In this document: piece after piece, positions 1-20,841 of the stretch | Position numbering within the stretch: the first letter of the stretch is position 1 | Layout: each line of letters starts with the position of its first letter | Assembly: GCA_032249395.1 (NCBI GenBank) | Contig: JAVVFY010000004.1 | Coordinates: 1 to 51,978 of the forward strand | Origin: Candidatus Aenigmatarchaeota archaeon | GTDB lineage: Archaea > Aenigmatarchaeota > Aenigmatarchaeia > CG10238-14 > SpSt-28 | Length of the DNA stretch: 51,978 bases | Direction of reading: 5' to 3' | Made by a program: the position numbers and the translations under genes | Notes under the pieces: generated by a model | The model's input: the letters and a program-made list of their open reading frames with translations, nothing else | What the model was told of the DNA's origin: nothing | The model's database searches: none

Positions 1-1968
1 CAACTCTTTAGCGTTTTCTACTTTCTTAACAAAGTCCTCAAGAAACTTAAATCTCTCTTTTTCATCATCCGGAATTAGTTCTTTAAGAGGAACTTTTATT
101 TTAACAAACTTAACAAGATTATTGTTTCTTTCATTCTCATCACCACATTTCTCCAAAATTGTTATTACTGTGTTTATGTCAGCATCAGGAAAGACTCTTT
201 CTTTTGTTTCAATTATTGCAACTATTTTACAATGCTTCAAGAAGAATTCTTGCAAGTGTTTTCCATAATCAACATCCAACCACGCATTTGATGTAATATA
301 ACCAAATCTTCCTCCATTTTTCAAAAATCTCAAACCATGAATGAAGAAGTATGCATAAATTCCTGCCCTCTTGCTCAACTTTATGTCTTCTCCCCAATCT
401 TCTTTTAATGTTTGTTGTAACTTCTCCTTATAGTTTTCAACATAAGCATCCAATTCTTCTTGTCTTGTATAAGGAGGGTTGCCAACAACAGCGTCTAACT
501 CATCGGGAACTTCAACTTTTATATTTTCTTTTCCTATACCTTCAGCTAAAATTTTCATAAATTCTTTCCATTCCTTGAATTTGCTCACTTTTATATCAAA
601 GAAATCTTTGCAAATTACAATAGGATTTTCTATTGTACTCAAATCTCTGGCAGCAAGATTAATCATCGTTAAATGTGCAGCAAATTTTGATATATCTACT
701 CCAATTAACTGCTTTACTATTTCTTTATGAGATCTGTAAGGAGAAAGATACTTTATTCTAGCATAAGCTCTAACTAAAAATGTTCCAGCACCACAACCAA
801 AATCTGCAATTTTTGCATTAGGACTTTTTATGCAAAATGTGTTAATTATATCAACTACGTCAGGATTTGTGAAATATTGTCCAAGCTTATGTCTTTCTTC
901 ATCAGGAATTAATCTATCAAATATATGCCCAACATCTTTGTATCCGAGTTTAGAAAAATCATATTTAGAGAAACCATTGATAAAGCTCCTCAAGCTTGGA
1001 ACTATTGATTTTGGTATTGGCACTCTTTCTAAGAAATCAAATCCAAAAATTGCTTCAAAATCTTTTGTCGTTTTCTCAGCTTCATCAAAATACTTTTGCA
1101 ATTCCTTCTTGAGAAGCTCACCATCTTCAATACCTTCTTCTAATTTTATTGGCTCTAAGGATGGGAAATTTCTTCTAAGAGTATTGTAAAACATTACTTT
1201 GTTTAAAAGTAAGTATAAGAACTGTCTGGCAACTTTCTCAAATGGTTCGATATCATCAATAATTGGTGCATTCCAACCTTGAGATACAAACCATTCAATA
1301 AGTCTTTCTCTAAATTCTTTATCTTCCTTGGATTTTTTCCTAACTTCGAGAGCAATAGGATAATAAGAAGCATCTACAATATTTCTAAGAGAATAGATGA
1401 AAAATTCATCAATTGGTAGTGTTGGTAGTTCTTTCTTTCCTTCCAAAAACTCAACAAGCTCTTTCAAGAATTTTCTTAGACCTTCTTTAATTTTCTTTTG
1501 AATTTCGGGGTCATCCATTTCTCTTAGGTCTTTAATTTTGACAAACTCGTATCTGCTCTTTCTTTTCTCTTCCCATGATGTAGCCTCTTCATACGTTTTC
1601 CATAGAACCAATTCATTAACATTCCATGTAGCAAAAAATGGGCTTGTAGGAGGAAGATTGGCTTTAGCTTGAGCATCGTTAATTAATTCCCAGTCATAAG
1701 GAGTCCAACCTTGCGTAGGATCTTTCAATTCAATATGGCAAACTGGTTTTATTCTGACGCTTTTCCATATGACAATATCGGGAAATCTTCTTGACTGACC
1801 ATCTGGCAATTTTTTCTCAACGTCCACATCAGCTCTTTCAAAAGGCAAGCCTTCTTCCTTTATAATCTCGTTTATCATCTCTACAAGTCTTTGTCTAATA
1901 GTGTTTTCTACATATCCAATTGGTTCAGAAGTATAGAACCTCTCAGAAGGTGTAGAATATTTGCTCAT
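1..1968 (-). CDS. Type IIG-like restriction-modification enzyme: N-terminal PD-(D/E)xK nuclease module fused to a gamma-class N6-adenine DNA methyltransferase. The C-terminal part (target recognition) lies beyond the window start.
   Basis: Absent from the ORF track because there is no stop inside the window. Minus-strand ATG at 1968-1966, open for 656 codons to position 1. My translation shows RRFPDIVIW...CHIELKD (PD...ExK, about 1720-1790), the SAM motif ADFGCGAGTF (about 781-810) and the catalytic VVGNPPY (revcomp of 469-489). This nuclease-then-methylase order is typical of MmeI/Eco57I-like enzymes. Confidence 0.75.
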   Translation of the reverse strand, partial: MSKYSTPSERFYTSEPIGYVENTIRQRLVEMINEIIKEEGLPFERADVDVEKKLPDGQSRRFPDIVIWKSVRIKPVCHIELKDPTQGWTPYDWELINDAQAKANLPPTSPFFATWNVNELVLWKTYEEATSWEEKRKSRYEFVKIKDLREMDDPEIQKKIKEGLRKFLKELVEFLEGKKELPTLPIDEFFIYSLRNIVDASYYPIALEVRKKSKEDKEFRERLIEWFVSQGWNAPIIDDIEPFEKVARQFLYLLLNKVMFYNTLRRNFPSLEPIKLEEGIEDGELLKKELQKYFDEAEKTTKDFEAIFGFDFLERVPIPKSIVPSLRSFINGFSKYDFSKLGYKDVGHIFDRLIPDEERHKLGQYFTNPDVVDIINTFCIKSPNAKIADFGCGAGTFLVRAYARIKYLSPYRSHKEIVKQLIGVDISKFAAHLTMINLAARDLSTIENPIVICKDFFDIKVSKFKEWKEFMKILAEGIGKENIKVEVPDELDAVVGNPPYTRQEELDAYVENYKEKLQQTLKEDWGEDIKLSKRAGIYAYFFIHGLRFLKNGGRFGYITSNAWLDVDYGKHLQEFFLKHCKIVAIIETKERVFPDADINTVITILEKCGDENERNNNLVKFVKIKVPLKELIPDDEKERFKFLEDFVKKVENAKEL

Positions 1969-1992: not shown

Positions 1993-2457
1993 TTAAATTT
2001 TAGAAGAGTTTAGATAACTTTGGACTTGTTGATTTCTTTTTATCTCCAATACTTCCTTAATCTTAAATCCCATATACTTTCCTTTTTCTTCTACTGAAAT
2101 GTTGAGTAAATTTAAGCAAAACTTCTGAAGAGTCCTCCCATCGTTCATTCCAAAATTATCTATCACAAAGTCTACTTTTTTCTTTAAATCTTCATCTAGC
2201 TTAACCTCTTCTTTAAGATCTTCTTCTTTCAGCCTATCAAACTCTTTTGAGACTTCGAAAGAGAATGGTCCTAAGTAGTAAATGTAATATTCATTTCCAA
2301 GCAAACTATCTTCTCTTATCGTTTTTGAATCAGCATCATAATGTTCTATTAAAAACATTAGTTTCATGACTTGCAATTTCCCGAAGAAACTCTTTCTTTT
2401 CATCAGTTTTTTTATAAGGTAGATTAAAACTTCCCTATTCTTTTTGTTATTTTTCAT
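1993..2457 (-). CDS. Panacea/SocA (DUF4065)-like domain protein, putative antitoxin-type module
   Basis: 154 aa. The pattern GKLQVMKLMFLIEH...YYIYYLGPFSFEV resembles the KLQKLLYF...W.yGP core of DUF4065/GepA. It lies 24 nt upstream of the R-M gene on the same strand. Confidence 0.45.
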   Translation of the reverse strand: MKNNKKNREVLIYLIKKLMKRKSFFGKLQVMKLMFLIEHYDADSKTIREDSLLGNEYYIYYLGPFSFEVSKEFDRLKEEDLKEEVKLDEDLKKKVDFVIDNFGMNDGRTLQKFCLNLLNISVEEKGKYMGFKIKEVLEIKRNQQVQSYLNSSKI

Positions 2458-2487: not shown

Positions 2488-3156
2488 TTAAATTCTTTTT
2501 AAACAATTTATTACTTCAGTAAGGCGTTCTATGAGCTTAAACAAGCTGTAGTTCTTTGTGCATTTCTTTGTGATATACTGACATAAAACCCTAATGTTGT
2601 CGTTCTGTATCTTTAATTTCAAATATTCTTCAACAATATAGTAGATTTCTATCAATTGTGAAATTCTTTCATAATTTTCGTTTTCAAATTGAGGGAAAAT
2701 AAGCAAAACTATAATTTTTTCATTTTTGTTTGTGTATTTCTCGACTATATCTTCTACGTATTCTAAAAAATTGCTTCCACTTATTATTCTTTTAATCTCA
2801 ATTGTAATTTCACTAGTCTTTAAATCCATATTCTCTAAAAGATAAGCATTCAATCTTTTCTTTTCTAATTCTTTTTTTATGATTAATCTACACAATCTAT
2901 CAGCATAGACATTCTTTTTCATGAACTCTTCGAAATTTTCAATTTTCTTCTTTTTAAAAAGAGGATTAAACACAAAACGGATTTTTTCTATTACATCCTT
3001 TTCTATTTCCCTAAATTCTTTCATTCTTCTACCAACTTGCCGTTCATCTATAGAGGTAATGTCAAATAAACTGCAATAGAATAACTCATGTTTATTTTCA
3101 TCATTCTTAATCTTATCGTAATATTTCTCAAATTCTTCAAATGACAGCAATTCCAT
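2488..3156 (-). CDS. Hypothetical protein, 222 aa, probably all-helical, no recognisable motif
   Basis: Long ORF with protein-like charged and hydrophobic periodicity. Its start is 1 nt after the RadC stop and it ends 30 nt before the Panacea-like gene. Confidence 0.55.
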   Translation of the reverse strand: MELLSFEEFEKYYDKIKNDENKHELFYCSLFDITSIDERQVGRRMKEFREIEKDVIEKIRFVFNPLFKKKKIENFEEFMKKNVYADRLCRLIIKKELEKKRLNAYLLENMDLKTSEITIEIKRIISGSNFLEYVEDIVEKYTNKNEKIIVLLIFPQFENENYERISQLIEIYYIVEEYLKLKIQNDNIRVLCQYITKKCTKNYSLFKLIERLTEVINCLKRI

Positions 3157-3157
3157 T

Positions 3158-3835
3158 CTAAAAACTCTCCTTCACACTTTTAAAAGAATTACTTCCTATA
3201 ATCAAATGATCTAAGACATTAACTCCTAAAAGCTCCCCTAATCTCATAATTCTTTTCGTCATTTGAATATCAGCATCGCTAGGTTCAGCATCTCCAGAAG
3301 GATGGTTGTGAACTAAAATTATTGAAGCAGCATTATAATCAAAAGCTAGCTTGAAGATTTCCCTACCTGAGAAAACACTTTCATTCAAGCTTCCTTTAAA
3401 CACATCTTCAACTTTAATCAACCTATTTCTCGAATCTAACAACAAAACTTTCAAAACTTCTTGTTCCAAATCTTGCATCTCGCTTCCAACAATTTTAAAA
3501 ACATCTTCAGGCTTTTCAATTATTGGACTTACATCTTCAACATAAGAATTAACTCTTCTCGCTAACTCAAAAATTGCTTGAATTTGGGCAGCTCTAACTT
3601 TTCCAATTCCAAAGAATTTTTCTAATTCGCCAATGCTAGCTTTTGCCAATCTCTTCAAATCATACTTTCTCAAAACTTTTTGAGTCAATTCTAAAGCTGT
3701 AATTTTCCTTCCTTTCCAATTGACATCTTTACCAAAAATTATTGCTAAGAGTTCAGCGTTAGATAAACTGCTAACTCCTTTTTGAAGCAATCTTGTTAAT
3801 GGTCTGTCTTGAAGTTTTTTTGAATAACTTTTCAT
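3158..3835 (-). CDS. radC: RadC-like JAB/MPN+ domain protein
   Basis: N-terminal HhH-like LSNAELLAIIFG and the C-terminal JAB motif ILVHNHPSGDAEPSDADIQMTKRI. Confidence 0.85.
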   Translation of the reverse strand: MKSYSKKLQDRPLTRLLQKGVSSLSNAELLAIIFGKDVNWKGRKITALELTQKVLRKYDLKRLAKASIGELEKFFGIGKVRAAQIQAIFELARRVNSYVEDVSPIIEKPEDVFKIVGSEMQDLEQEVLKVLLLDSRNRLIKVEDVFKGSLNESVFSGREIFKLAFDYNAASIILVHNHPSGDAEPSDADIQMTKRIMRLGELLGVNVLDHLIIGSNSFKSVKESF

Positions 3836-3957
3836 TTAAAGTTTTTAAGTTTGGGAAAGAGGTTAATTGCTATAAGATGGTTATAAGATAGTTTATTTTT
3901 AACTTAAATTTTTTAGCAGAGTATTAGACTTAATAACTACAAACAAAATAATATAAA

Positions 3958-6270
3958 ATGGAAATAGATCTAGAACTAAAAGAAACAATAGAGAGAATTA
4001 GAGCCGATTGGAGAGATGTAATATCTAAAAAAGTTCCTAGAGGCACGTTAATAGGAACTTTGAGAAATTTGTTTAAAGAATTTAATGTAGAAAATTTAAA
4101 CGATGTATTCAGGTTCGTAAAAGAGTTTATACAGAATGCTGATGATGCTGAAAGTAGTGAGATTAAATTTAAAATTGAAGAAGATTTTGTAACAGTTTTT
4201 AATAATGGCAAACCATTTACAAAAGACGGTATTGATAGTATATGTGGAAAATATTTCTCAAATAAAACTCCAGCTCTCCATATAGGTTTTTTAGGTATAG
4301 GTTTCAAGTCAGTTTTTTTAATCTCAGAAAGCGTGAGTATAGGATCTGTTAATAGAGAATCCGGAAAATTTATATTTTTCTCTTTTGATAAAGAGAAACT
4401 AAAGCAAGAAGCAATAAATGAAGTGTGGGAAGATGCTATAGATGAAAAGTTTCTCAAGGCCTTTTTCCAAGTATATCCGTTATTAATAAATGAGGAATCT
4501 TTTGAGATTCCACCAGAGTATAATGTCGGTTTTAGAATAAAACTAAAAAATAGAGAAATGATAAAAGAATTAACAAATTGGATGTTGAGCGAAAATAGCA
4601 TTAATCCTCGAATATTATTATTTCTTCCACACCTTCAAAGGATTATTATAGAAACTTCAGAAAGAAAAATTACGTATGAGAAAAAACTAATTGAAAACGG
4701 AGAAAACTACGAAATTTTTTCCATTAGTGGTGGAAAAGAGAATTTGTATTATCTTATCTTCAGAAAAGAATACGAAGTACCCCAAGATATTTTGAAAAAA
4801 GAAAATGAACTACTAGAAGAATACAAACGAGATAAAATTGCTAAGAGAGAGATTTATGTGGCCTTTAAACTAAGAAAAGATCAAAATGTAACACTAGAAA
4901 AAGAGAACCAGGCTACACTCCATATTCTTCCATATAGTTTTGTACCATTGAAGCAAACACCTTTGAGTAATTTACACTTCATACCTGCTGGAGATTTTCT
5001 TGCTGATATATCGAAAAGTAGAATCATTTTAGAAGGAGAATGGAACAGGTCTATTCTTTTGAATATATCAAAATTTATAAAAGAAGAGATAGTGCCATTC
5101 TTTAAGAGAGACGAAAGATTTAAATATAACTTCCTATCAGTTTTGTGGGCGGAAAAAACCTACCAAAACATCATTGATGAGAATCTTATTCTAAAAATTC
5201 AAGACTTTATAAATTCTGGTGATGTGTTTCTAACTATAGATGGTAAGTGGGTTTCGAAAGATAAAATAGTAAGAGTGCCTCCAGAATTATTTGAAATTTT
5301 TAAGATTAATAAAGATCCGATAAACAAAATTAAAGAACTGATAAAGGATAAGGAAATATTAGATCCAAGATTTGAGTTGCCAGAGAGTTTAAATGAAGAA
5401 CTTGAATCACGACTTTCTGAAAATATATTTTATTACCTTAAAGAATATTTTAGATCATTAGTTGAAAAATTCGAAACATTACCTGAAGAGGAAAAGAAAG
5501 ATACCATTTTATTGATTTCCGAATTGTATGTTAATTATCTCAAAAAAATTCGAGATTCAAATAAGAAGATATTGGTAGATGAATTAATAGAAGAATTAAG
5601 AGGATTGAAATTTAAATCAAAAAGTGGTAAAATTATTTCAATAGGGGAATTGTTTCTACCTTCAGAAATTTCTGAATATAAACTGGAAGAGATTGTAAAT
5701 AAGTTAAGAGAACAACTTGGAGAATTCTTTACCGAATATGTAGAAACTGGAGAAGAAAAAAGAATAAGCTACGAATTTTTAGATATAGCACCGTTTAAGG
5801 ATATTATAAATAATGAAAATGTTAAGACATTTTTAAGAAGAGTGAGCAGAGAATCTAAAATAGATAACCAATTAGGAGCTTTGAGAGAAAACTTAAGCTA
5901 TAACATTGCTTTATTATTTATAAAAAAGAAAAAGGCAGGTAGTAAAAATGTCAGATTCGAATTAATTCTGAATCCAACGGATTTTTTGACTTTAATGGGT
6001 AATGACCAAATTTATGTTGAAGTAAAAAGCTCTATTAATAAAGAATTTGTTCTTGAAAGAGCTCAAATAGATTTCATTCTAAATCCATCTAATAAGGTAG
6101 AATTAATTTTTGTGGATTATTCTTTAAATGAAGATTTGAAATATGATATTGAGTGGATCAAAGTATACGAAATTAATATAAATAATTTGAGTTATTATCA
6201 ATGGAAAGTGAAAATGGAAGATGAAATAAAAGCTGGCGAATGTAATCTAAGAGAATTATTGAATGAATAG
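3958..6270 (+). CDS. Sacsin/Hsp90-like GHKL ATPase fused to a C-terminal DUF3883-like PD-(D/E)xK (restriction endonuclease-like) domain
   Basis: 770 aa. N-box EFIQNADDAES, then FNNGKPFTKDGIDSI and IGFLGIGFKSVFLISE (sacsin-type G-boxes). The C-terminal 100 aa carry TDFLTL...IYVEVKSS...LERAQIDF, matching the D...EVK...nE pattern of DUF3883. Confidence 0.65.
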   Translation: MEIDLELKETIERIRADWRDVISKKVPRGTLIGTLRNLFKEFNVENLNDVFRFVKEFIQNADDAESSEIKFKIEEDFVTVFNNGKPFTKDGIDSICGKYFSNKTPALHIGFLGIGFKSVFLISESVSIGSVNRESGKFIFFSFDKEKLKQEAINEVWEDAIDEKFLKAFFQVYPLLINEESFEIPPEYNVGFRIKLKNREMIKELTNWMLSENSINPRILLFLPHLQRIIIETSERKITYEKKLIENGENYEIFSISGGKENLYYLIFRKEYEVPQDILKKENELLEEYKRDKIAKREIYVAFKLRKDQNVTLEKENQATLHILPYSFVPLKQTPLSNLHFIPAGDFLADISKSRIILEGEWNRSILLNISKFIKEEIVPFFKRDERFKYNFLSVLWAEKTYQNIIDENLILKIQDFINSGDVFLTIDGKWVSKDKIVRVPPELFEIFKINKDPINKIKELIKDKEILDPRFELPESLNEELESRLSENIFYYLKEYFRSLVEKFETLPEEEKKDTILLISELYVNYLKKIRDSNKKILVDELIEELRGLKFKSKSGKIISIGELFLPSEISEYKLEEIVNKLREQLGEFFTEYVETGEEKRISYEFLDIAPFKDIINNENVKTFLRRVSRESKIDNQLGALRENLSYNIALLFIKKKKAGSKNVRFELILNPTDFLTLMGNDQIYVEVKSSINKEFVLERAQIDFILNPSNKVELIFVDYSLNEDLKYDIEWIKVYEININNLSYYQWKVKMEDEIKAGECNLRELLNE

Positions 6271-6287
6271 TATTTACTTTTAAGTCT

Positions 6288-7145
6288 TCATCTTTCCTTT
6301 CCAACTTTTTCAATCATTTCTTTTATTGTGTTTCTAATGTTCTCATCTTTTATTTGTCTTACTAATTCCTTCCAGCTTTCAATTATTTTCTCTTCACCCA
6401 AGCTATCTAACATAAACCAAAACAATGGGATAAGTCTTTTTCTTAAAGCAGATTTTTCTTTGAATTCTTTTATCATTTCTGGATACAATGAGCCCGCAAG
6501 AACCCTTTTCTTATCTTCATCCCATCTTATATAGTAAGAATCTCCTGTAAATGGTGAAACACTCGTATCAACTTCACTGACACAATCTATTAAAAATGAT
6601 GAAAATAATCCTCTATCACCAATGAACTTTATAGGATCATAATCAAATAGTTTTAACAATAATAAACCGCCTGTTAATGTTCCGGAACCTATTAGTGCAT
6701 ATCCCGGATTATCGTGAAGAGGTTCACACAAACCTCTGTCATCAAACTTATACAACTTTGGATTTCCCTCTTGAGTTACACTTGCGAGTAGCATTGTAGT
6801 ATCTACTTCAATGCCAGCGTTTTTCAACTCAGAATATCTATTTATCAAATAATTTTCAATTTCATGAACTATCTTCTCCATCTCATCTTCTTTGGGGCTT
6901 CTCGGTTTTTGTAGAGATATAAACCAGTTTTCAAAAATTTTTTGAATATTTTCCATGTTTTGTTTTATAATTGTTGCATCTCCAGAACCTGCCAATAATG
7001 CTAAATCATATTCTTCTCCATTTATGTAAAACCCTATTGGAAAAATTTTCTTTTCTTCTCTCATTATTCCTATCATGCTTGAAACTCTGGTATCAGCTGT
7101 AACCAAAATTCCATTACCCCATCTCAATGCAATGATGAAAGTCAT
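6288..7145 (-). CDS. Divergent proteasome-beta/HslV-like Ntn hydrolase with insertions and a C-terminal helical extension
   Basis: The ORF track gives 6288-7223. I prefer the internal ATG at 7145, which yields M-TFIIALRWGNGILVTADTR...KKIFPI...LLAGSGDAT...ALIGSGT. Thr1, Asp17 and Lys32/33 line up with archaeal PsmB (TTTVG...ATE/DRR...GKKLFQI). An A/T-rich TATA-like stretch lies 20-35 nt upstream of 7145. Confidence 0.6.
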   Translation of the reverse strand: MTFIIALRWGNGILVTADTRVSSMIGIMREEKKIFPIGFYINGEEYDLALLAGSGDATIIKQNMENIQKIFENWFISLQKPRSPKEDEMEKIVHEIENYLINRYSELKNAGIEVDTTMLLASVTQEGNPKLYKFDDRGLCEPLHDNPGYALIGSGTLTGGLLLLKLFDYDPIKFIGDRGLFSSFLIDCVSEVDTSVSPFTGDSYYIRWDEDKKRVLAGSLYPEMIKEFKEKSALRKRLIPLFWFMLDSLGEEKIIESWKELVRQIKDENIRNTIKEMIEKVGKER

Positions 7146-7337
7146 ATATAGTAATTGCATTATTATAAATATAATTCTTTTAAGACTACTAGCAAGAATA
7201 AGTATACAGAAATAAGGCTTCAATTACCCTTTAATCTTTATAATAATATTCATTCTCCTTTAAGAACAAAGTCAATGCTACAATAGAAATAAGATTTAGA
7301 GCAACTTCAATCAAAATAATCAAAGTCTGTTTTTATG

Positions 7338-7640
7338 TTATTTTTTATTTTCTTTTGCTTTCTTCTTTTCCAATTCATCCAAAACTTCTATCTTCACTTT
7401 CTCCAAAGCAAGAAAAGCTTCAATTCTTCCAATCGTCTTACCTATATTGTAAACCTTCATCTTCTCTTCATCATAATTTCTAATAAGCCTTTGCTCACAT
7501 TCTTTAATTTGACTAACTATTTTCATCAATCTCTCTTTAGTCATTGCCCTAGAAAAGAAATCCTTAATGAACAAGCCAGTTATCTTTTTTATTTTCTCCA
7601 ATTCTTCATACAATCTGTCATCACTCACTTTTCTCACCAA
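7338..7640 (-). CDS. Hypothetical coiled-coil protein (100 aa)
   Basis: Charged, heptad-like sequence. It is more protein-like than the overlapping plus-strand ORF 7335-7643, which is F/L/S-rich. Same strand as the flanking genes. Confidence 0.4.
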   Translation of the reverse strand: MVRKVSDDRLYEELEKIKKITGLFIKDFFSRAMTKERLMKIVSQIKECEQRLIRNYDEEKMKVYNIGKTIGRIEAFLALEKVKIEVLDELEKKKAKENKK

Positions 7641-7656
7641 TAAATCCCATTAAAAC

Positions 7657-8409
7657 TTAACTCTTAAATCTCTTTCTGTCTTTGTTTTGAATTTTTCTTA
7701 TAATCAAAAACATTGTCTCTAAAAATGAAGCTAAAGTGAAGAGAGAAACTAAAGATGGAGAAATTTGGATTAAATCGTCAAACTCTATTTCAATAGGACC
7801 AACTATCTCTTCTTTCTTTATTTTCTTATGCCACTTAAGATAATGCTCTCTTTGCATTTTCCTATAAGATTTCTCATATGTCATCGATTTTCTAAGATAA
7901 TACAAAGCTTTCATATATTCTTCCCAGCAGCACCAATCTTTCTTGTATAGTAATAAGAATTCATCGTCTTCATCTGTCTCATTAAGTACAGAAAGCTCTT
8001 GTGTTTTCACCTTTTCCTTGATAAGAGTTCTTATATCAATAAGGAAATCTTGAGTAGTGTAGATTTTATTCTTATTAGCAAAAGAACCTATTCCTCCCAT
8101 TATTCCCTCATACTTAGAAGTAAAACCCCAGTACCATTCATTATCTCTTTCCACATCTTCCCAAGGAAGTTTATGACCAGCATAAGAAAGAACTATTGAA
8201 AATTCTGGGTCAAAATGGAAATTCCATCTATCAAAATAAGGACTGCCTTTTGGAATTTTTACGTAGATTCTAGTCGGTTAACCAAATTTTATGAGAGTGT
8301 AGATTACATAATCTTCCCATTTTGACTGGAATAAAACGTACTTAAATTTCATTTCTTCTAGCTTAGCGAATATTGCTTTAAGTGCTTTTTCTAATGTTGA
8401 AGCCTTCAT
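7657..8409 (-). pseudogene. Hypothetical protein gene interrupted by one in-frame TAA
   Basis: ATG at 8409-8407 is in the same frame as ORF 7657-8154. The reading frame is continuous (MKASTLEKALKAIFAKLEEMKFKYVLFQSKWEDYVIYTLIKFG*PTRIYVKIPKG...WEDVERDNEWYW) except for TAA at 8280-8278. Confidence 0.5.
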
Positions 8410-8731: not shown

Positions 8732-9359
8732 ATGGAGGTTAGAGAAATTATGGATGAGAGTACAAAAGAAGTAAAAGTTGGCCAAAAAGTGCCTGACTTT
8801 AAAATCACATACTACGATCCAAATAAAAAAGGTTTCGGACAAATTAATCTTTATGACATTCTTAAGCAAGGCAAATTGGTAATTTTTTTCTTCTATCCAG
8901 CGGACTTCACTTTTGTTTGTCCCACCGAACTTGCGGACATTAATGCTAAATACGATGAGCTAACAAAAGAAAACGTTGAGGTAATAACCTGCTCGACTGA
9001 CACACAATACGTTCATCTTGCTTGGTGTAGAGATGAACCTTTATTAAAAGATTTCAAAATGGAAGATGGCAGCAGACCCAACAGGAACGATCTCAAGAAT
9101 TTTTGGTGTATACGATGAAAGCTCAGGACTCGCTTTAAGAGGAACGTTCATAATAAATCCGGATGGAATATTAGTAGGTTCTGAAATAAATCATTATTCC
9201 GTTGGTAGAAATGCTGAAGAGCTTGTAAGAAAAATAAAAGCTTTCCAATATGTGTATAAACATCCTGATGAGGCTTGCCCAGCAAAATGGGAGCCTGGTA
9301 AGAAAACGTTAAAACCTGGGCCAGAGATAGTAGGAAGAGTAGGGGAAGTTCTTAAGTAA
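8732..9359 (+). pseudogene. 2-Cys peroxiredoxin (AhpC/Prx1 type), frameshifted
   Basis: ORFs 8732-9118 and 9066-9359 together give a full Prx: FFFYPADFTFVCPTE (peroxidatic Cys) ... ADPTGTISRIFGVYDE...LRGTFIINPDG...DEACPAKWEPG. The frame changes at about 9060-9066. Confidence 0.8.
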
Positions 9360-12286: not shown

Positions 12287-13739
12287 CTATTTGAAGAACA
12301 ATTCTGGTTTTTCTGTATGTATTGGAATCAACTTCTTTGGTCCAATCTCTTTAATCATTTCTCTAATTTCTATTCCATTCGCATGCCCAGAAGCATGAAT
12401 TTGATGCATTGGCAAATTAAAGTGTGTAAGCCAGTTTCTAACTCTGTTTTCTTCTATAACCATATCGTCATCAAAAGGCTCCGTTTTAGATCTAATGTAA
12501 ACTCCATTTTTTGGCTTTATGTCAATTAACTCTTGCAACTCAAAATTATCACATCTAAAAATGAATTCTTCTTGTCTATCTCTTATGTCTTCAGCAGTTA
12601 CCATGTTGTCTAATTCTAAAAACTCTCTTTCCCACTTATCATAATCGGCTTCTAAAAATCTTCTCTCAACTTCTGAACTTTTAACCCAGCCGACATCTTG
12701 AAAATGATAAAAATAATCTTTACCTAAAATTCCTCACCCTTTTTTTTCAACATAGACAACAGCATCAGAAAGCTTTGGATATCCTTTTATTCCCGCTTCT
12801 TCAAAAAGTTTCAAAAGATAAGCTTGTCTTGTATTAACAACAAGCTTTCTACCAGTTTTCTTAGCAACATTGAAAAAACTCACCATTCTATCCAAATCTC
12901 TGGCAGGATAATTTACTACAACTAAGCCATCAGTCTTCTCAACTATTTCTCTAGCCCTTTTTTCAACATCTTCCTCGCTTTGAACATCTTCTTCATCGAT
13001 CCTCGTTCCTTCGCAAAAAAAGATATCTAAACCTTCAGTTTTTGCTCGAGAAACAAATTCTCTTGTTTGACTTCCTTTTCTTCCATGAAATCTTAAATCT
13101 CCGGTATAGCCAATCTTCTCTTCATCCCCATAAACAACAAAAGCTAAAGCACCTGGAATAGAATGATCTACAGGAAAAGCTTGAAATTCTATGTCATTTA
13201 TGTGATATTTTTTGTAAGGTTCTATAATTTGATAATTTCTTTCTACAATAGCATCGTCTCCAACCAATCTTTTATAACCTTCTCTTCCATGAACGAAATG
13301 AAATCTCAAGCTTAAAGTAACTAAATCAGAAAGAAGTGTTTGAGAAGTATCTTCAATGGCTTTCAATATTAGGTAAGTTTCTTTGCTACAAAATATCGGA
13401 ATGTCTTCTCTCAAAAAATGAATTAGAGCTGAATGATCCGAATGTGCATGCGATAATAGTAAGCCGTCTAAGAATTTTTCTTTTGGTTGATCTATTCCAA
13501 GATGTCCCAAAAAATCTTTTCTATATATTGGCAAATCTAAATGACTTGGCAACAACCCCCATCTCAACCCAATCTAAAAACCCATTTAACATTCTTGGTT
13601 TCAAAAATTCTGAAAAGTATTTTTTCTCTTGAGTGAAACTCAAACCAAAATCGAGCATTAATCTCGTGTTTTTGAATTCTAAAAGAATTTTATTACCTCC
13701 AATCTCTCGTTCTCCTCCAAAAATTTTTATGTTCACCAT
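12287..13739 (-). pseudogene. Metallo-beta-lactamase/beta-CASP ribonuclease (RNase J-like), broken by one frameshift and one in-frame TGA
   Basis: Three ORF pieces. MVNIKIFGGEREIGGNKILLEF...MLDFG (start ATG 13739), LLLSHAHSDHSA (HxHxDH), GYTGDLRFHG, and C-terminal QIHASGHA...IPIHTE. The frameshift is at the C5/G5 run 13556-13560. TGA at 12736-12734 is in frame with both flanking pieces (VEKKG*GILGKDYFYHF...). Confidence 0.75.
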
Positions 13740-13771
13740 AAAATTTTTAAGTAATTTTGAAAATATATCAT

Positions 13772-14395
13772 ATGTCCACTTTGAGAAGCGGGGCAGTAAT
13801 TCTTGGAGCCTATGCATCAAAAATAAGAAAGACGCTCTTTGCTCAACTAAAAGATAAAGTAAAAGCCGGAGAACTCTCAAGCCAAGAAATTGCTAGATCA
13901 GCAGGCGAATTAAACAAAGCACTTTATACTCTTTTTGTGGAAAGGCTAAAACTCGAAAAAGGAGATGTTGTTAGAATTTCAATAGATTATGAAATAGATG
14001 AGCAAAGGATAAACTGGAAATGGGATACAATTAAAATCGAATGTTTTAAGAGAGTTCCAGAAGAAGAAATAATGAAAAATCTTTTCGATATATTAAAAAG
14101 AGAAGAAGCAAAATACACCGTAAGAAAATTGAGAGAAACTAAGCTTGGTGATTTAATATTTGAGATTTTGGAAAACGAAAAGCAAATAGGCGTAGTAGTT
14201 GTTACTCCTTTAGACAACGAAGCTATAATAAGAGGAGCCATAAGACCAACAACCATAATTCAAAAAAGAAGAGTTAATATAGAAGGAGATATAGAAGAGT
14301 ATTTCTCAAATTCTTTAAAAGAAATTTTAGAATCTGGTAAGCAAGCAGAAAAGGAGGAAGTTGAGAAAATAATTAATGAAATTTCGTCTCTTTAA
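13772..14395 (+). CDS. Conserved archaeal hypothetical protein (possibly DUF2258-like)
   Basis: I prefer the ATG at 13772 (MSTLRSGAVILGAYASKIRKTLFAQLK). The N-terminal motif recalls the archaeal DUF2258 family, but from memory only. Confidence 0.35.
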   Translation: MSTLRSGAVILGAYASKIRKTLFAQLKDKVKAGELSSQEIARSAGELNKALYTLFVERLKLEKGDVVRISIDYEIDEQRINWKWDTIKIECFKRVPEEEIMKNLFDILKREEAKYTVRKLRETKLGDLIFEILENEKQIGVVVVTPLDNEAIIRGAIRPTTIIQKRRVNIEGDIEEYFSNSLKEILESGKQAEKEEVEKIINEISSL

Positions 14396-20739: not shown

Positions 20740-20841
20740 TGCCTGGGGCGGGATTCGAACCCGCGACCTCCGCGTTTCTTATCATCAATTCAAAGCTCAT
20801 TTATTATGAGCGCGGCGTTTTAACCACTCAACTACCCAGGC
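20740..20841 (-). tRNA. tRNA with CAU anticodon (elongator Met, or Ile2 if modified) containing a 29-nt intron at the canonical 37/38 position
   Basis: Revcomp: GCCTGGG TA GTTGAGTGGTTAAAAC G CCGCG CTCATA [ATAAATGAGCTTTGAATTGATGATAAGAA] A CGCGG AGGTC GCGGG TTCGAAT CCCGC CCCAGGC A. The intron spans 20804-20776. Intron ATGAGC pairs with exon GCTCAT (BHB-type helix). G1:C72 and the anticodon stem argue against an initiator. Confidence 0.85.

What the first reader, a model, noticed from the sequence alone, without database searches (positions are those of the whole stretch)
3958..6270. Sacsin-like GHKL ATPase fused to a DUF3883-type nuclease domain, divergent from the RadC operon
Seen: EFIQNADDAES plus GIGFKSVF (sacsin/Hsp90-type Bergerat-fold boxes) at the N-terminus. 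About 500 aa of unassigned helical sequence follow. A C-terminal block has TDFLTL...IYVEVKSS...ERAQIDF (D...ExK). Established: GHKL ATPases of the MORC/sacsin type combined with restriction-endonuclease-fold domains are recurrent in prokaryotic conflict systems, and DUF3883 belongs to the PD-(D/E)xK superfamily. Inference: this is a single-polypeptide ATP-driven DNA sensor-nuclease, functionally uncharacterised in archaea. It is placed back-to-back (122-nt divergent spacer) with the RadC/R-M cassette.
Basis: partly seen in the sequence, partly recalled or inferred. Interest (0 to 1): 0.65.

Follow-up and report, generated by a model that had tools for sequence, protein, structure and literature searches.

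The report
Short Tiamat-like ATPase-nuclease defence gene
This hot-spring archaeal gene encodes a half-size relative of the bacterial anti-phage protein TmtA (Tiamat), with a sacsin/Hsp90-type ATPase joined to a restriction-enzyme-like nuclease; it sits as a swappable cassette in a defence island, so it is an uncharacterised variant of a known kind, not a new kind.

Summary
The ORF is real: 3958-6270 (+), 770 aa. The N-terminus is a sacsin-clade GHKL ATPase (NCBIfam NF047352, 73 bits against a cut-off of 50; family profile hits sacsin 5V47 at E 1e-11; the model matches Hsp90 N+M domains). The C-terminus is a divergent NOV_C/DUF3883 PD-(D/E)xK nuclease. Pfam does not detect it in this protein. 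It does pass threshold in a 40%-identical homologue. D675, E688 and K690 are invariant in 30 homologues, hhalign gives 90% probability, and the domain model's PDB matches are mostly PD-(D/E)xK nucleases, led by Hjc.

PADLOC matches TmtA (Tiamat, E 2.5e-41), but only over the first ~40% of the 1300-1800-aa models. This is a short form (~770-850 aa) that is common in archaea and bacteria and has no conserved partner gene. The window protein belongs to a tiny divergent clade: three other full-length relatives among 1.84 billion representatives.

A close relative keeps the flanking RadC and Ntn-hydrolase genes at 87-91% DNA identity but carries two unrelated genes in place of this one. A Type IIG R-M enzyme lies beyond RadC here, and Hma genes lie there in the relative.

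Best reading: an ATP-gated, dimerising defence nuclease. The activity and target are inferred, not shown.

The parts
3958..6270 (+). Complete gene for the 770-aa short TmtA-like protein (sacsin-type GHKL ATPase + NOV_C/DUF3883-like nuclease)
   Evidence: ORF list and translation. A 99%-identical copy lies on an independent JGI contig. PADLOC TmtA E 2.5e-41.
3958..4602 (+). GHKL (Bergerat-fold) ATPase domain, sacsin clade, residues 1-215. The low-confidence segment at ~100-113 may be the ATP lid (my reading).
   Evidence: NF047352 73 bits against a cut-off of 50. Pfam SACS 30.3 bits, just under its cut-off of 32.8. Family profile against sacsin 5V47 E 1.3e-11. Foldseek hits to Hsp90/GRP94 N-domains. 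pLDDT profile.
4123..4146 (+). GHKL motif I, E56-F-I-Q-N60-A-D-D63 (catalytic Glu and Mg-binding Asn by analogy with Hsp90/sacsin)
   Evidence: Invariant E56, Q59, N60, D63 in 31 sequences. Aligned to sacsin ELIQNAEDA. Coordinates checked.
4201..4218 (+). Sacsin-type motif II, N82-N-G84-K-P-F87, replacing the DxGxG of other GHKL proteins
   Evidence: Invariant N82, G84, F87. Aligned to sacsin 'YNN-AxF'.
4285..4308 (+). Glycine-rich ATP-lid hinge / phosphate loop, G110-F-L-G-I-G-F-K117
   Evidence: Invariant G110, G113, G115, F116, K117. Aligned to sacsin GRFGIGFNS.
4630..4992 (+). Beta-rich second domain (residues ~225-345), in the position of the Hsp90 middle domain / GHKL transducer. It carries invariant R297 and near-invariant E298.
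   Evidence: Secondary structure of the AF2 model, pLDDT mostly above 85. Foldseek alignments of 550-620 columns to full-length Hsp90, GRP94 N+M, and the TopoII and GyrB ATPase regions. R297 invariant. A ribosomal-S5 fold as such was not demonstrated.
5035..5937 (+). Mostly helical connector (residues ~360-660). It is shared with TmtA models up to residue 587, and it is ~100-150 aa shorter than in the 810-850-aa homologues.
   Evidence: AF2 model. PADLOC alignment 35-587 against model positions 26-539 of 1302. Gap block in alignment columns ~640-800.
5938..6267 (+). C-terminal PD-(D/E)xK nuclease domain, a divergent NOV_C/DUF3883
   Evidence: hhalign against PF13020-positive homologues: 90% probability, E 1.4e-6. 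PF13020 above threshold in P0003. [quoted passage not shown] Foldseek hits to Hjc, RecU, SPARDA nuclease, EcoRV and SwaI.
5980..6027 (+). Predicted catalytic triad D675 ... E688-V-K690
   Evidence: Invariant in all aligned homologues. D lies at the start of one strand and ExK inside the next strand of the model. Coordinates checked.
3894..6306 (.). Variable cassette: the only stretch between the conserved RadC and Ntn-hydrolase genes that is not shared with the close relative L083
   Evidence: blastn: window 3176-3893 = L083 6705-5988 (91%), and 6307-7199 = L083 3451-2564 (87%). Between these, L083 has two unrelated genes of 219 and 601 aa.
3836..3957 (.). 122-nt divergent spacer to RadC. Its RadC-proximal 58 nt are conserved with L083. 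The TmtA-proximal 64 nt belong to the cassette.
   Evidence: Sequence. blastn boundary at 3893. The bacterial-type promoter scan was not above shuffles and does not apply to archaea.
3158..3835 (-). RadC-like JAB protein: conserved flank of the cassette, not part of the protein's own system as far as shown
   Evidence: Pfam RadC 1.2e-42. 89% identical protein in L083.
1..1968 (-). Type IIG restriction-methylase, cut by the window edge; a defence-island neighbour
6288..7145 (-). Convergent neighbour: Ntn-hydrolase (proteasome-beta-like) protein, probable start at the ATG of 'MTFIIAL'. It recurs near all four lineages of this clade. A functional link is not shown.
   Evidence: Pfam Proteasome 21.7 bits against a cut-off of 22.4. 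Invariant M1-T2, D18, K33. Adjacency data. Family of 73 clusters.

Best explanation
The gene encodes a short-form member of the Tiamat (TmtA)-type protein family. It is one polypeptide with an N-terminal sacsin/Hsp90-type GHKL ATPase, a middle-domain-like module and helical connector, and a C-terminal NOV_C/DUF3883 PD-(D/E)xK nuclease.

Shown: the domain identities, conservation of the ATP-binding and nuclease catalytic residues, homology to TmtA over the first ~590 residues, and the gene's status as a replaceable cassette in a defence-gene hotspot of a hot-spring archaeon.

Inferred: ATP binding closes and dimerises the GHKL heads, as in Hsp90, MutL and MORC. This brings two Hjc-like nuclease domains together on DNA and licenses nicking or cutting of invading (viral or plasmid) DNA, or of the cell's own DNA as abortive infection. 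On this reading it acts alone as a single-gene defence system. The trigger and target are unknown.
For: - GHKL domain: NF047352 73 bits against a cut-off of 50. The family profile hits sacsin structures at E 1e-11, with motifs I-III aligned. The full model has pLDDT 85.5 and matches Hsp90 N+M at E 3.6e-9. All ATP-site residues are invariant.
- Nuclease domain: D675, E688 and K690 are invariant. PF13020 passes threshold in the 40%-identical P0003. hhalign gives 90% probability. The domain model matches Hjc, RecU, SPARDA and EcoRV.
- NOV_C activity: the NOV_C domain of HmaA is an experimentally shown nickase needed for phage defence (PMC11232893).
- Tiamat relationship: 8 PADLOC TmtA models hit, best E 2.5e-41. 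Longer homologues also match the TmtA C-terminus. Among the 146 best representatives retrieved, 62 of the 68 that are 700-899 aa long and 20 of the 25 that are 1100 aa or longer carry the same C-terminal domain. Tiamat is a single-gene system with a PD-(D/E)xK domain (10.1101/2024.10.26.620412).
- Context: the cassette swap against L083 has 87-91% identical flanks. A Type IIG R-M enzyme lies beyond RadC here and HmaC/DUF1156 genes lie there in L083. Group-B homologues sit next to GmrSD, R-M, transposase and TA genes in some loci.
- No conserved partner appeared among 100 immediate neighbours in 57 loci.
- Only 1 relative in 2.9 million viral contigs, so this is a cellular gene.
- In metagenome X5 the RadC region has depth 200-465 but the gene ~0-60. 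This is weak evidence, because it comes from contig depths.
Against: - There is no experimental or expression evidence: no RNA runs hold it.
- The window protein itself does not reach the Pfam thresholds for SACS (30.3 against 32.8) or NOV_C (no hit). An HMM built only from PF13020-positive homologues does not pick up its C-terminus above shuffles.
- It covers only ~40% of the TmtA models and lacks their central 500-900 aa. Tested Tiamat activity therefore cannot simply be transferred to it.
- Many homologues have housekeeping immediate neighbours such as aconitase, MCM, Hsp70 and gyrase.
- Its composition does not differ from the flanks, and no flanking repeats mark a mobile element.
- All four lineages of this clade have the same Ntn-hydrolase gene nearby. 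That fits vertical co-inheritance as well as it fits a mobile defence gene.
Confidence: 0.6

Rival explanations
1. Housekeeping DNA repair or recombination enzyme. This would be a MutL-like design (GHKL ATPase + transducer + linker + endonuclease) with an Hjc-like resolvase/nickase domain, acting on branched or mismatched DNA in a thermophile that lacks MutL.
For: The architecture parallels MutL. The nearest structural matches of the nuclease domain are Holliday-junction resolvases Hjc and RecU. NurA-HerA-like gene pairs lie beside the gene in two of the four lineages of this clade. Many homologues have housekeeping neighbours.
Against: In a close relative the gene is replaced by unrelated genes while both flanks stay 87-91% identical. 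The clade is extremely sparse: 3 other full-length relatives among 1.84 billion representatives. No MutL profile hit. The best-scoring family is a defence protein. The two NurA/HerA pairs are barely related to each other (E ~1e-6), and none is present in this window.
Confidence: 0.12
2. Two-gene module. The short TmtA-like nuclease of this clade works with the neighbouring Ntn-hydrolase (proteasome-beta-like threonine protease), for example through proteolytic activation or turnover of the nuclease.
For: An Ntn-hydrolase gene lies within 7 kb in 4 of 4 lineages and is directly adjacent in 3, in both convergent and co-directional arrangements. Pairwise identities of the two proteins rank the lineages the same way. 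The nucleophile T2 and D18, K33 are invariant.
Against: The Ntn-hydrolase family is far larger (73 clusters across Thermoprotei, Nitrososphaeria, Asgard and Pyrococcus) and mostly occurs without any such nuclease. In L083 (86% identical hydrolase) the nuclease is absent. The convergent orientation in 2 of 3 adjacent cases argues against an operon. The 57 group-B loci with at least one flank and the ~60 metagenome loci contain no such gene.
Confidence: 0.12
3. Accessory subunit of the adjacent island (Type IIG R-M / RadC / Panacea-like pair), for example a modification-dependent or R-M-assisting nuclease rather than an autonomous system.
For: It is divergently arranged 122 nt from RadC, with R-M and a Panacea-like gene behind it. 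A RadC gene also lies ~1.7 kb from a group-B homologue in a Methanosarcinales contig. GHKL proteins of the MORC type are known to be embedded in R-M operons (PMC2292703).
Against: RadC is kept in L083 without this gene, and the R-M is replaced there by Hma genes. RadC was found near only 1 of ~60 other homologues. No neighbour family recurs.
Confidence: 0.08
4. Non-nucleolytic, chaperone-like or DNA-clamping GHKL protein in which the C-terminal domain only binds DNA, or a decaying gene.
For: The NOV_C signature is degenerate in this clade, with no direct Pfam hit. Sacsin itself is described as a chaperone (PMC3710099).
Against: The ORF is intact. D/E/K and the ATP-site residues are invariant across 40-46% divergent relatives, which argues for purifying selection on catalysis.
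Confidence: 0.05

Closest known systems
TmtA of the Tiamat anti-phage system (Millman et al. 2022; PADLOC models PDLC03964-03972)
   Same: N-terminal sacsin-type GHKL ATPase plus ~350 aa of downstream sequence are homologous (E 2.5e-41, residues 35-587). The C-terminal NOV_C-type PD-(D/E)xK domain sits at the extreme C-terminus in both the long and the short forms. It is a single gene with no conserved partner in the wider short-form family.
   Different: 770 aa against model lengths of 1302-1782. Only ~40% of the model is covered, and the central 500-900 aa are absent. The C-terminal domain of this clade is too divergent to hit the TmtA or PF13020 profiles directly. The host is archaeal and from a hot spring. 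The mechanism of Tiamat itself is listed as unknown (PMC12926258). That the tested examples are bacterial is from my memory.
HmaA of the Hma system (SNF2 helicase + NOV_C nuclease)
   Same: Same class of C-terminal NOV_C/DUF3883 nuclease. In HmaA it is a nickase whose catalytic residues are required for defence against T4 (PMC11232893). Group-B homologues hit the HmaA C-terminus in PADLOC.
   Different: The motor/sensor is an SF2 helicase there and a GHKL ATPase here. Hma has methylase and AAA+ partners.
Sacsin repeat region (SRR) Hsp90-like domain, PDB 5V44-5V47
   Same: Closest solved relatives by sequence (E 1e-11). They share ExxQNAxDA, the N-N/D-G/A-x-x-F motif in place of DxGxG, and GxxGxGF.
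   Different: Sacsin is a giant eukaryotic protein with three SRRs, DnaJ and HEPN domains, and no PD-(D/E)xK nuclease (PMC3710099).
Plant NO VEIN (NOV), which gave its name to Pfam PF13020 NOV_C
   Same: The C-terminal domain family is shared. That NOV also has an N-terminal GHKL-like region is from my memory.
   Different: It is a large nuclear eukaryotic protein with a developmental role. It was not compared directly here.
Prokaryotic MORC / paraMORC GHKL proteins of R-M-like systems
   Same: GHKL plus second-domain ATPase module linked with nucleases in conflict systems (PMC2292703).
   Different: The MORC-type profile HATPase_c_3 is not met (14.2 against 25 bits). The motifs are those of the sacsin clade. 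The nuclease here is fused rather than a separate gene.
MutL
   Same: Overall logic: a GHKL ATPase that dimerises on ATP, then a linker, then a C-terminal endonuclease.
   Different: There is no MutL profile hit. The endonuclease fold differs: PD-(D/E)xK here, not the MutL C-terminal metal site.

Membership tests
GHKL ATPase, sacsin clade | Motif I ExxxNAxD, with catalytic Glu and Mg-binding Asn | tested here: met
   E56-F-I-Q-N60-A-D-D63. It is invariant in 31 sequences and aligned to sacsin ELIQNAEDA.
GHKL ATPase, sacsin clade | Sacsin-type motif II (N-N/D-G/A-x-x-F) and glycine loop GxxGxGF | tested here: met
   N82, G84, F87 and G110, G113, G115, F116 are invariant. They are aligned to sacsin 'YNN-AIF' and 'GRFGIGF'.
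GHKL ATPase, sacsin clade | Curated profile above its cut-off | tested here: met
   NCBIfam NF047352 P_loop_sacsin scores 73 bits against a cut-off of 50. Pfam SACS PF25794 scores 30.3 against 32.8 for this protein, just under threshold, but it matches all 31 family members at E<=0.01.
GHKL ATPase, sacsin clade | Bergerat fold followed by a middle/transducer domain | tested here: met
   AF2 model pLDDT 85.5. Foldseek hits to Hsp90 full-length and N+M structures at E 3.6e-9 to 7.5e-6, and to TopoII/GyrB ATPase regions. A ribosomal-S5 fold specifically was not resolved.
GHKL ATPase, sacsin clade | ATP binding and hydrolysis | not testable with these tools
   Needs biochemistry.
NOV_C / DUF3883 (PF13020), PD-(D/E)xK superfamily | Pfam PF13020 hit at or above the gathering score | tested here: not met
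   There is no hit for the window protein or its isolated C-terminus even at E<=10. The criterion is met by P0003 (28.9 against 22.1 bits; 40% identical) and nearly met by P0002 (20.9). 29 of 31 family members match at E<=0.01.
NOV_C / DUF3883 (PF13020), PD-(D/E)xK superfamily | Homology of the domain to PF13020-positive domains by a non-circular test | tested here: inconclusive
   hhalign of this clade's C-terminus against the group-B C-terminus gives 90.4% probability, E 1.4e-6, over 97 columns, with D and ExK in register. A group-B-only HMM finds P0002 and P0003 (E 0.002 and 0.008) but not the window protein above 1000 shuffles.
NOV_C / DUF3883 (PF13020), PD-(D/E)xK superfamily | Catalytic D ... 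(D/E)xK conserved | tested here: met
   D675, E688 and K690 are invariant in 30 of 30 sequences that reach the C-terminus.
NOV_C / DUF3883 (PF13020), PD-(D/E)xK superfamily | [quoted passage not shown] | tested here: met
   The domain model has pLDDT 86 with the element order H-E-E-E-(E)-H-E. The listed Foldseek hits are mostly PD-(D/E)xK nucleases: Hjc at E 4e-3 and probability 0.98-1.0, plus RecU, SPARDA, EcoRV, SwaI and HincII. E-values are modest.
NOV_C / DUF3883 (PF13020), PD-(D/E)xK superfamily | Nuclease activity | not testable with these tools
   Shown for the NOV_C domain of HmaA only (PMC11232893).
Tiamat (TmtA) | Significant match to TmtA profiles | tested here: met
   8 PADLOC TmtA models hit, best PDLC03972 at E 2.5e-41 and 139.8 bits.
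Tiamat (TmtA) | Full-length coverage and size of TmtA (models 1302-1782 positions) | tested here: not met
   Only model positions 26-539 of 1302 are covered. The protein is 770 aa and the central region of long TmtA is absent.
Tiamat (TmtA) | Architecture: N-terminal GHKL, C-terminal PD-(D/E)xK, in one polypeptide | tested here: met
   The long relatives have the same two ends.
Tiamat (TmtA) | Stand-alone single-gene system | tested here: inconclusive
   No recurrent neighbour appeared among 100 flanking genes of group-B homologues. This clade, however, always has an Ntn-hydrolase gene nearby.
Tiamat (TmtA) | Protection against phage or virus | not testable with these tools
   Needs infection assays.
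MORC / paraMORC | MORC-type GHKL profile (PF13589 HATPase_c_3) at threshold | tested here: not met
   14.2 bits against a cut-off of 25. 19 of 31 relatives match at E<=0.01, which reflects general GHKL similarity.
MutL | MutL ATPase, transducer or C-terminal domain profiles | tested here: not met
   No MutL family appears among the Pfam or NCBIfam hits at E<=1.

The most novel reading that the evidence does not exclude
In this small archaeal clade the short TmtA-like nuclease and the recurrent neighbouring threonine-protease-like Ntn hydrolase form a functional pair, that is a protease-gated or protease-cleared GHKL nuclease. That would be a defence design not described so far, and it would give a function to a widespread but unstudied archaeal Ntn-hydrolase family.
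Probability: 0.12. Interest if true: 0.65.

Novelty: new variant of a known kind. Interest (0 to 1): 0.4.

Why it matters
Tiamat is a validated anti-phage system whose mechanism is still listed as unknown. This protein, and the ~800-aa family around it, keeps only the two conserved ends of TmtA (ATPase head and nuclease tail). It is a natural minimal version from a thermophile, and thermophile proteins are often easier to handle for biochemistry and structure work. It also extends the family into hot-spring archaea, where few defence systems have been tested. It documents a clean cassette-exchange hotspot, bounded by RadC on one side and an Ntn-hydrolase gene on the other, that could be mined for further archaeal defence genes. 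The unknown 219- and 601-aa genes that occupy the slot in the relative are one example. None of this overturns current ideas; it is a useful, moderately interesting variant.

Tried and rejected
- Direct Pfam or PADLOC detection of DUF3883 in the window protein or its isolated C-terminus: no hit.
- HMM built only from PF13020-positive homologues: it did not detect the window C-terminus above shuffles.
- Profile search of PDB sequences found nothing for the C-terminal domain.
- The whole-protein Foldseek list was filled by Hsp90 hits, so the domain was modelled separately.
- MORC membership: rejected, because HATPase_c_3 is below threshold.
- The Pfam NLE hit (20.8 bits, below its cut-off) was treated as noise.
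- Search for a conserved partner among 100 immediate neighbours of homologues: none found.
- Flanking direct or inverted repeats, and promoter or terminator motifs around the cassette: nothing above chance.
- Compositional anomaly of the cassette: none.
- RNA-seq evidence: no runs.
- Viral carriage: 1 locus in 2.9 million contigs.
- Identity of the neighbouring Ntn hydrolase: the PDB profile search gave only a spurious designed-protein hit. The assignment rests on sub-threshold PF00227 hits, precomputed PF00227 hits in several homologues, and source names.
- Shared partners of that hydrolase across loci: only two weak pairs.
- The Millman et al. preprint text does not contain the word Tiamat. 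Details of the tested Tiamat genes therefore rest on secondary papers and on memory.


Full report
**Observation.** The window has an uninterrupted ATG-initiated ORF at 3958..6270 on the + strand, 770 aa. Coordinates were checked by translation. The spacer to the divergent RadC gene (3158..3835, minus strand) is 122 nt. The 'R-M' part of the neighbouring cassette is also real. The minus-strand reading frame that runs off the window start (1..1968) carries Eco57I and N6_Mtase domains and matches PADLOC Type IIG restriction-methylase models at 4.3e-48. A 222-aa unknown and a 154-aa weak SocA/Panacea-like protein lie between it and RadC. The organism is an archaeon: the window holds a ThermoDBP-related archaeal protein and an intron-length tRNA. 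It comes from hot-spring metagenomes, and the GC content is about 30%.

**N-terminal two thirds.** Pfam gives only sub-threshold GHKL hits: SACS 30.3 against 32.8 bits, HATPase_c 17.9, HATPase_c_3 14.2. NCBIfam's sacsin ATP-binding model passes clearly, at 73 bits against a cut-off of 50.
- In an alignment with 30 homologues, the residues of the three nucleotide-binding motifs are invariant: E56, Q59, N60, D63; N82, G84, F87; G110, G113, G115, F116, K117.
- A profile of that alignment finds the solved sacsin Hsp90-like domains (5V44-5V47) at about 1e-11, with these motifs in register. This includes the sacsin-specific N-N/D-G/A-x-x-F that replaces DxGxG.
- An AlphaFold model built on the alignment has mean pLDDT 85.5. 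It shows a Bergerat-type domain (1-215), a beta-rich second domain (~225-345), a long helical region (~360-660) and a small alpha/beta C-terminal domain.
- Foldseek aligns 550-620 columns to full-length Hsp90 and to GRP94 N+M (E 3.6e-9 to 7.5e-6), and also to TopoII and GyrB ATPase regions.
- So a middle/transducer-like domain does follow the ATPase. I could not show that it is specifically an S5 fold.

**C-terminal domain.** The assignment is nevertheless supported.
- The full-length homologue P0003 (40% identical, 99% coverage) scores 28.9 bits against a cut-off of 22.1. P0002 (46% identical) scores 20.9. 29 of 31 family members match NOV_C.
- D675, E688 and K690 are the only invariant columns of the domain.
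- hhalign of this clade's C-termini against those of the PF13020-positive homologues gives 90.4% probability and E 1.4e-6, with D and ExK aligned.
- An HMM built from the PF13020-positive sequences alone does not find the window protein above 1000 shuffles. I record this limitation.
- Its listed PDB matches are mostly PD-(D/E)xK nucleases: Hjc (E 4e-3, probability 0.98-1.0), RecU, the SPARDA nuclease, EcoRV, SwaI and HincII. tRNA-splicing endonuclease and Bax1 also appear further down the list.
- The NOV_C domain of HmaA has been shown experimentally to be a nickase required for phage defence (PMC11232893).

**What family it belongs to.** PADLOC matches eight TmtA (Tiamat) models. The best is E 2.5e-41, with residues 35-587 on model positions 26-539 of 1302.
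- The 810-850-aa homologues match the same models more strongly (E down to 4e-93). They also match the C-terminal ~90 positions of a 1563-position TmtA model and of HmaA.
- Long TmtA and these short proteins therefore share both ends and differ by a central 500-900 aa.
- An exhaustive phmmer search of 1.84 billion representative proteins found 1598 relatives at E<=1e-3 and 51 at E<=1e-30.
- Of the 146 best representatives retrieved, 68 are 700-899 aa long, and 62 of those have the C-terminal domain. 25 are 1100 aa or longer, and 20 of those have the domain at the very end.
- In GTDB representative genomes I found 59 distinct full-length short forms in Halobacteria, Methanobacteriota, Nitrososphaerota, DPANN groups, Chloroflexota, Planctomycetota, Acidobacteriota and others.
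- The window protein itself belongs to a very small divergent clade. Only P0002 (48%), P0003 (44%) and P0042 (42%) align over the full length. Everything else is at most 36% identical and aligns only in the N-terminal half.
- Tiamat is described as a single-gene system with a PD-(D/E)xK domain (10.1101/2024.10.26.620412), and its mechanism is listed as unknown (PMC12926258).
- The Millman et al. preprint text does not name it. That the validated examples are bacterial and 1300 aa or more is from PADLOC model lengths and my memory.

**Context.** The strongest evidence comes from contig L083, from a close relative.
- blastn aligns window 3176-3893 (RadC plus 58 nt of the spacer) at 91% and 6307-7199 (the gene downstream) at 87%. 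Nothing in between aligns.
- The window's 3894-6306, which is exactly this gene with 64 nt upstream, is replaced in L083 by two unrelated genes of 219 and 601 aa.
- Beyond RadC the content differs too. The window has the Type IIG R-M, the Panacea-like gene and the 222-aa gene. L083 has a 216-aa gene, HmaC (E 4.7e-157) and a DUF1156 protein.
- This is the pattern of a defence-gene hotspot with conserved anchors.
- In one large hot-spring metagenome (X5), contigs covering RadC have depth 200-465 while the gene region has ~0-60. This is suggestive only.
- For the wider short-form family, 100 immediate neighbours from 57 loci show no recurrent partner. They mix housekeeping genes (aconitase, MCM, Hsp70, gyrase, ligase) with ResIII, GmrSD_N, Eco57I/N6_Mtase, HEPN/MNT, NrS-1-type polymerase and transposase genes.
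The family looks like a scattered single-gene system.
- Only one relative was found in 2.9 million viral contigs.
- No flanking repeats, compositional shift or RNA evidence were found.

**A recurrent neighbour.** The convergent gene at 6288..7145 (minus strand; probable start at 'MTFIIAL') gives sub-threshold proteasome hits (21.7 against 22.4 bits).
- Homologues lie directly downstream of the three other sampled loci of the clade for which flank is available: L003, co-directional, 55% identical; L001/L088, convergent. In the fourth lineage (L148) the homologue lies 6.6 kb away.
- T2, D18 and K33 are invariant, as expected for an N-terminal-threonine hydrolase.
- The family is large, however: 73 clusters in Thermoprotei, Baldrarchaeia, Nitrososphaeria, Njordarchaeota and Pyrococcus. 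Some carry PF00227 hits or the name 'Ntn hydrolase family protein'.
- It usually has other neighbours. In Pyrococcus kukulkanii it heads a different four-gene operon. Its partners are not homologous between loci.
- I therefore treat the association as most likely conserved synteny at a hotspot border. A functional pair remains a minority possibility.

**Mechanism.**
- Shown: a complete GHKL ATP site and a complete PD-(D/E)xK site in one chain, both under conservation, and homology to a validated defence protein.
- Inferred from established GHKL behaviour (Hsp90, MutL, MORC, GyrB): ATP binding closes the lid and dimerises the N-terminal domains.
- Inferred from the Hjc-like fold: the nuclease works as a dimer. 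ATP-driven head closure would then assemble or position the nuclease pair on DNA.
- Not known: whether it nicks or cuts, what it recognises, and whether it kills the virus or the cell.

**Verdict.** The clade is sacsin rather than MORC. DUF3883 is detectable only indirectly. The architecture is that of the known Tiamat/TmtA family, of which this is a short, divergent, archaeal variant. Novelty: new variant of a known kind. Interest is moderate (0.4).

Noticed in passing
window 6288-7145 (-); also L003 2992-3834, L088 3701-4495, L148 10353-11174, L083 2613-3464: Ntn-hydrolase (proteasome-beta-like, ~270 aa, invariant Met-Thr start, D18, K33) found within 7 kb of all four lineages of the short TmtA-like clade. 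It belongs to a 73-cluster family of thermophilic archaea with no described function. In Pyrococcus kukulkanii it heads a 4-gene operon of unknowns. The listed TTG start at 7223 is probably wrong; the ATG at 7145 fits all homologues.
   Followed up: partly
window 1-1968 (-): Type IIG restriction-methylase (Eco57I/N6_Mtase domains, NPPY motif) cut by the window edge. By eye it has an N-terminal PD...ExK-like motif (FPDIVIW...HIELKD).
   Followed up: partly
window 1993-2457 (-) and 2488-3156 (-): A 154-aa protein with a weak SocA/Panacea antitoxin-domain hit (22.3 against 25.7 bits) lies next to a 222-aa protein with no hits. This may be a toxin-antitoxin pair between RadC and the R-M gene. Both are 100% identical in contig L002.
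   Followed up: no
L083 3452-5987 and 6775-11464: In the close relative, the slot of the TmtA-like gene holds two genes of 219 and 601 aa with no Pfam or PADLOC hits. The 601-aa protein is weakly similar to a 558-aa protein next to the Ntn hydrolase in L084. Hma genes (HmaC, DUF1156) replace the window's R-M side. The 219- and 601-aa genes are candidate unknown defence genes.
   Followed up: partly
L001 3985-7786 and L148 5493-8538: NurA-like + HerA/DUF87-like gene pairs lie beside the TmtA-like gene in two of the four lineages of the clade. The pairs are only distantly related to each other, and the L001 NurA is 634 aa with an HTH. None is present in this window.
   Followed up: partly
L004 12192-12878 (Methanosarcinales contig): A RadC gene also lies ~1.7 kb from a group-B homologue, in an island with GmrSD_N, ThiF and an SNF2+N6_Mtase fusion. 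RadC was not seen near the other ~60 homologues.
   Followed up: partly
window 3871-3878 and 3882-3889: Two copies of TATAAGAT spaced 11 nt apart, in the RadC-proximal part of the divergent spacer that is conserved with L083. This may be a TATA box or operator of RadC.
   Followed up: no
window 6118-6132 (residues 721-725, DYSLN): The 99%-identical copy on JGI contig L002 (P0001, 765 aa) lacks these five residues. They lie in a low-confidence loop of the nuclease domain.
   Followed up: no
window 8732-9359 (+) and 12287-13880 (-): A peroxiredoxin-like gene appears split into two overlapping ORFs. A metallo-beta-lactamase / beta-CASP (RNase J-like) gene appears split into three ORFs. These are frameshifts, pseudogenes or assembly errors; judged by eye from the translations only.
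   Followed up: no
window 20740-20841 (-): Rfam finds a 102-nt tRNA (64.6 bits) that ARAGORN does not report. The length fits an intron-containing archaeal tRNA.
   Followed up: no
window 3930-4601 (-): A 223-aa antisense ORF lies entirely inside the TmtA-like gene. Its sequence is low-complexity and Ser/Leu/Phe-rich. It is taken as a by-product of the AT-rich coding strand, not a gene.
   Followed up: no
window 2500-8000 in metagenome run X5: Contig depth over RadC is 200-465, against ~0-60 over the TmtA-like gene and ~6 over the Ntn hydrolase. RadC-bearing relatives seem far more abundant there than carriers of this cassette.
   Followed up: partly
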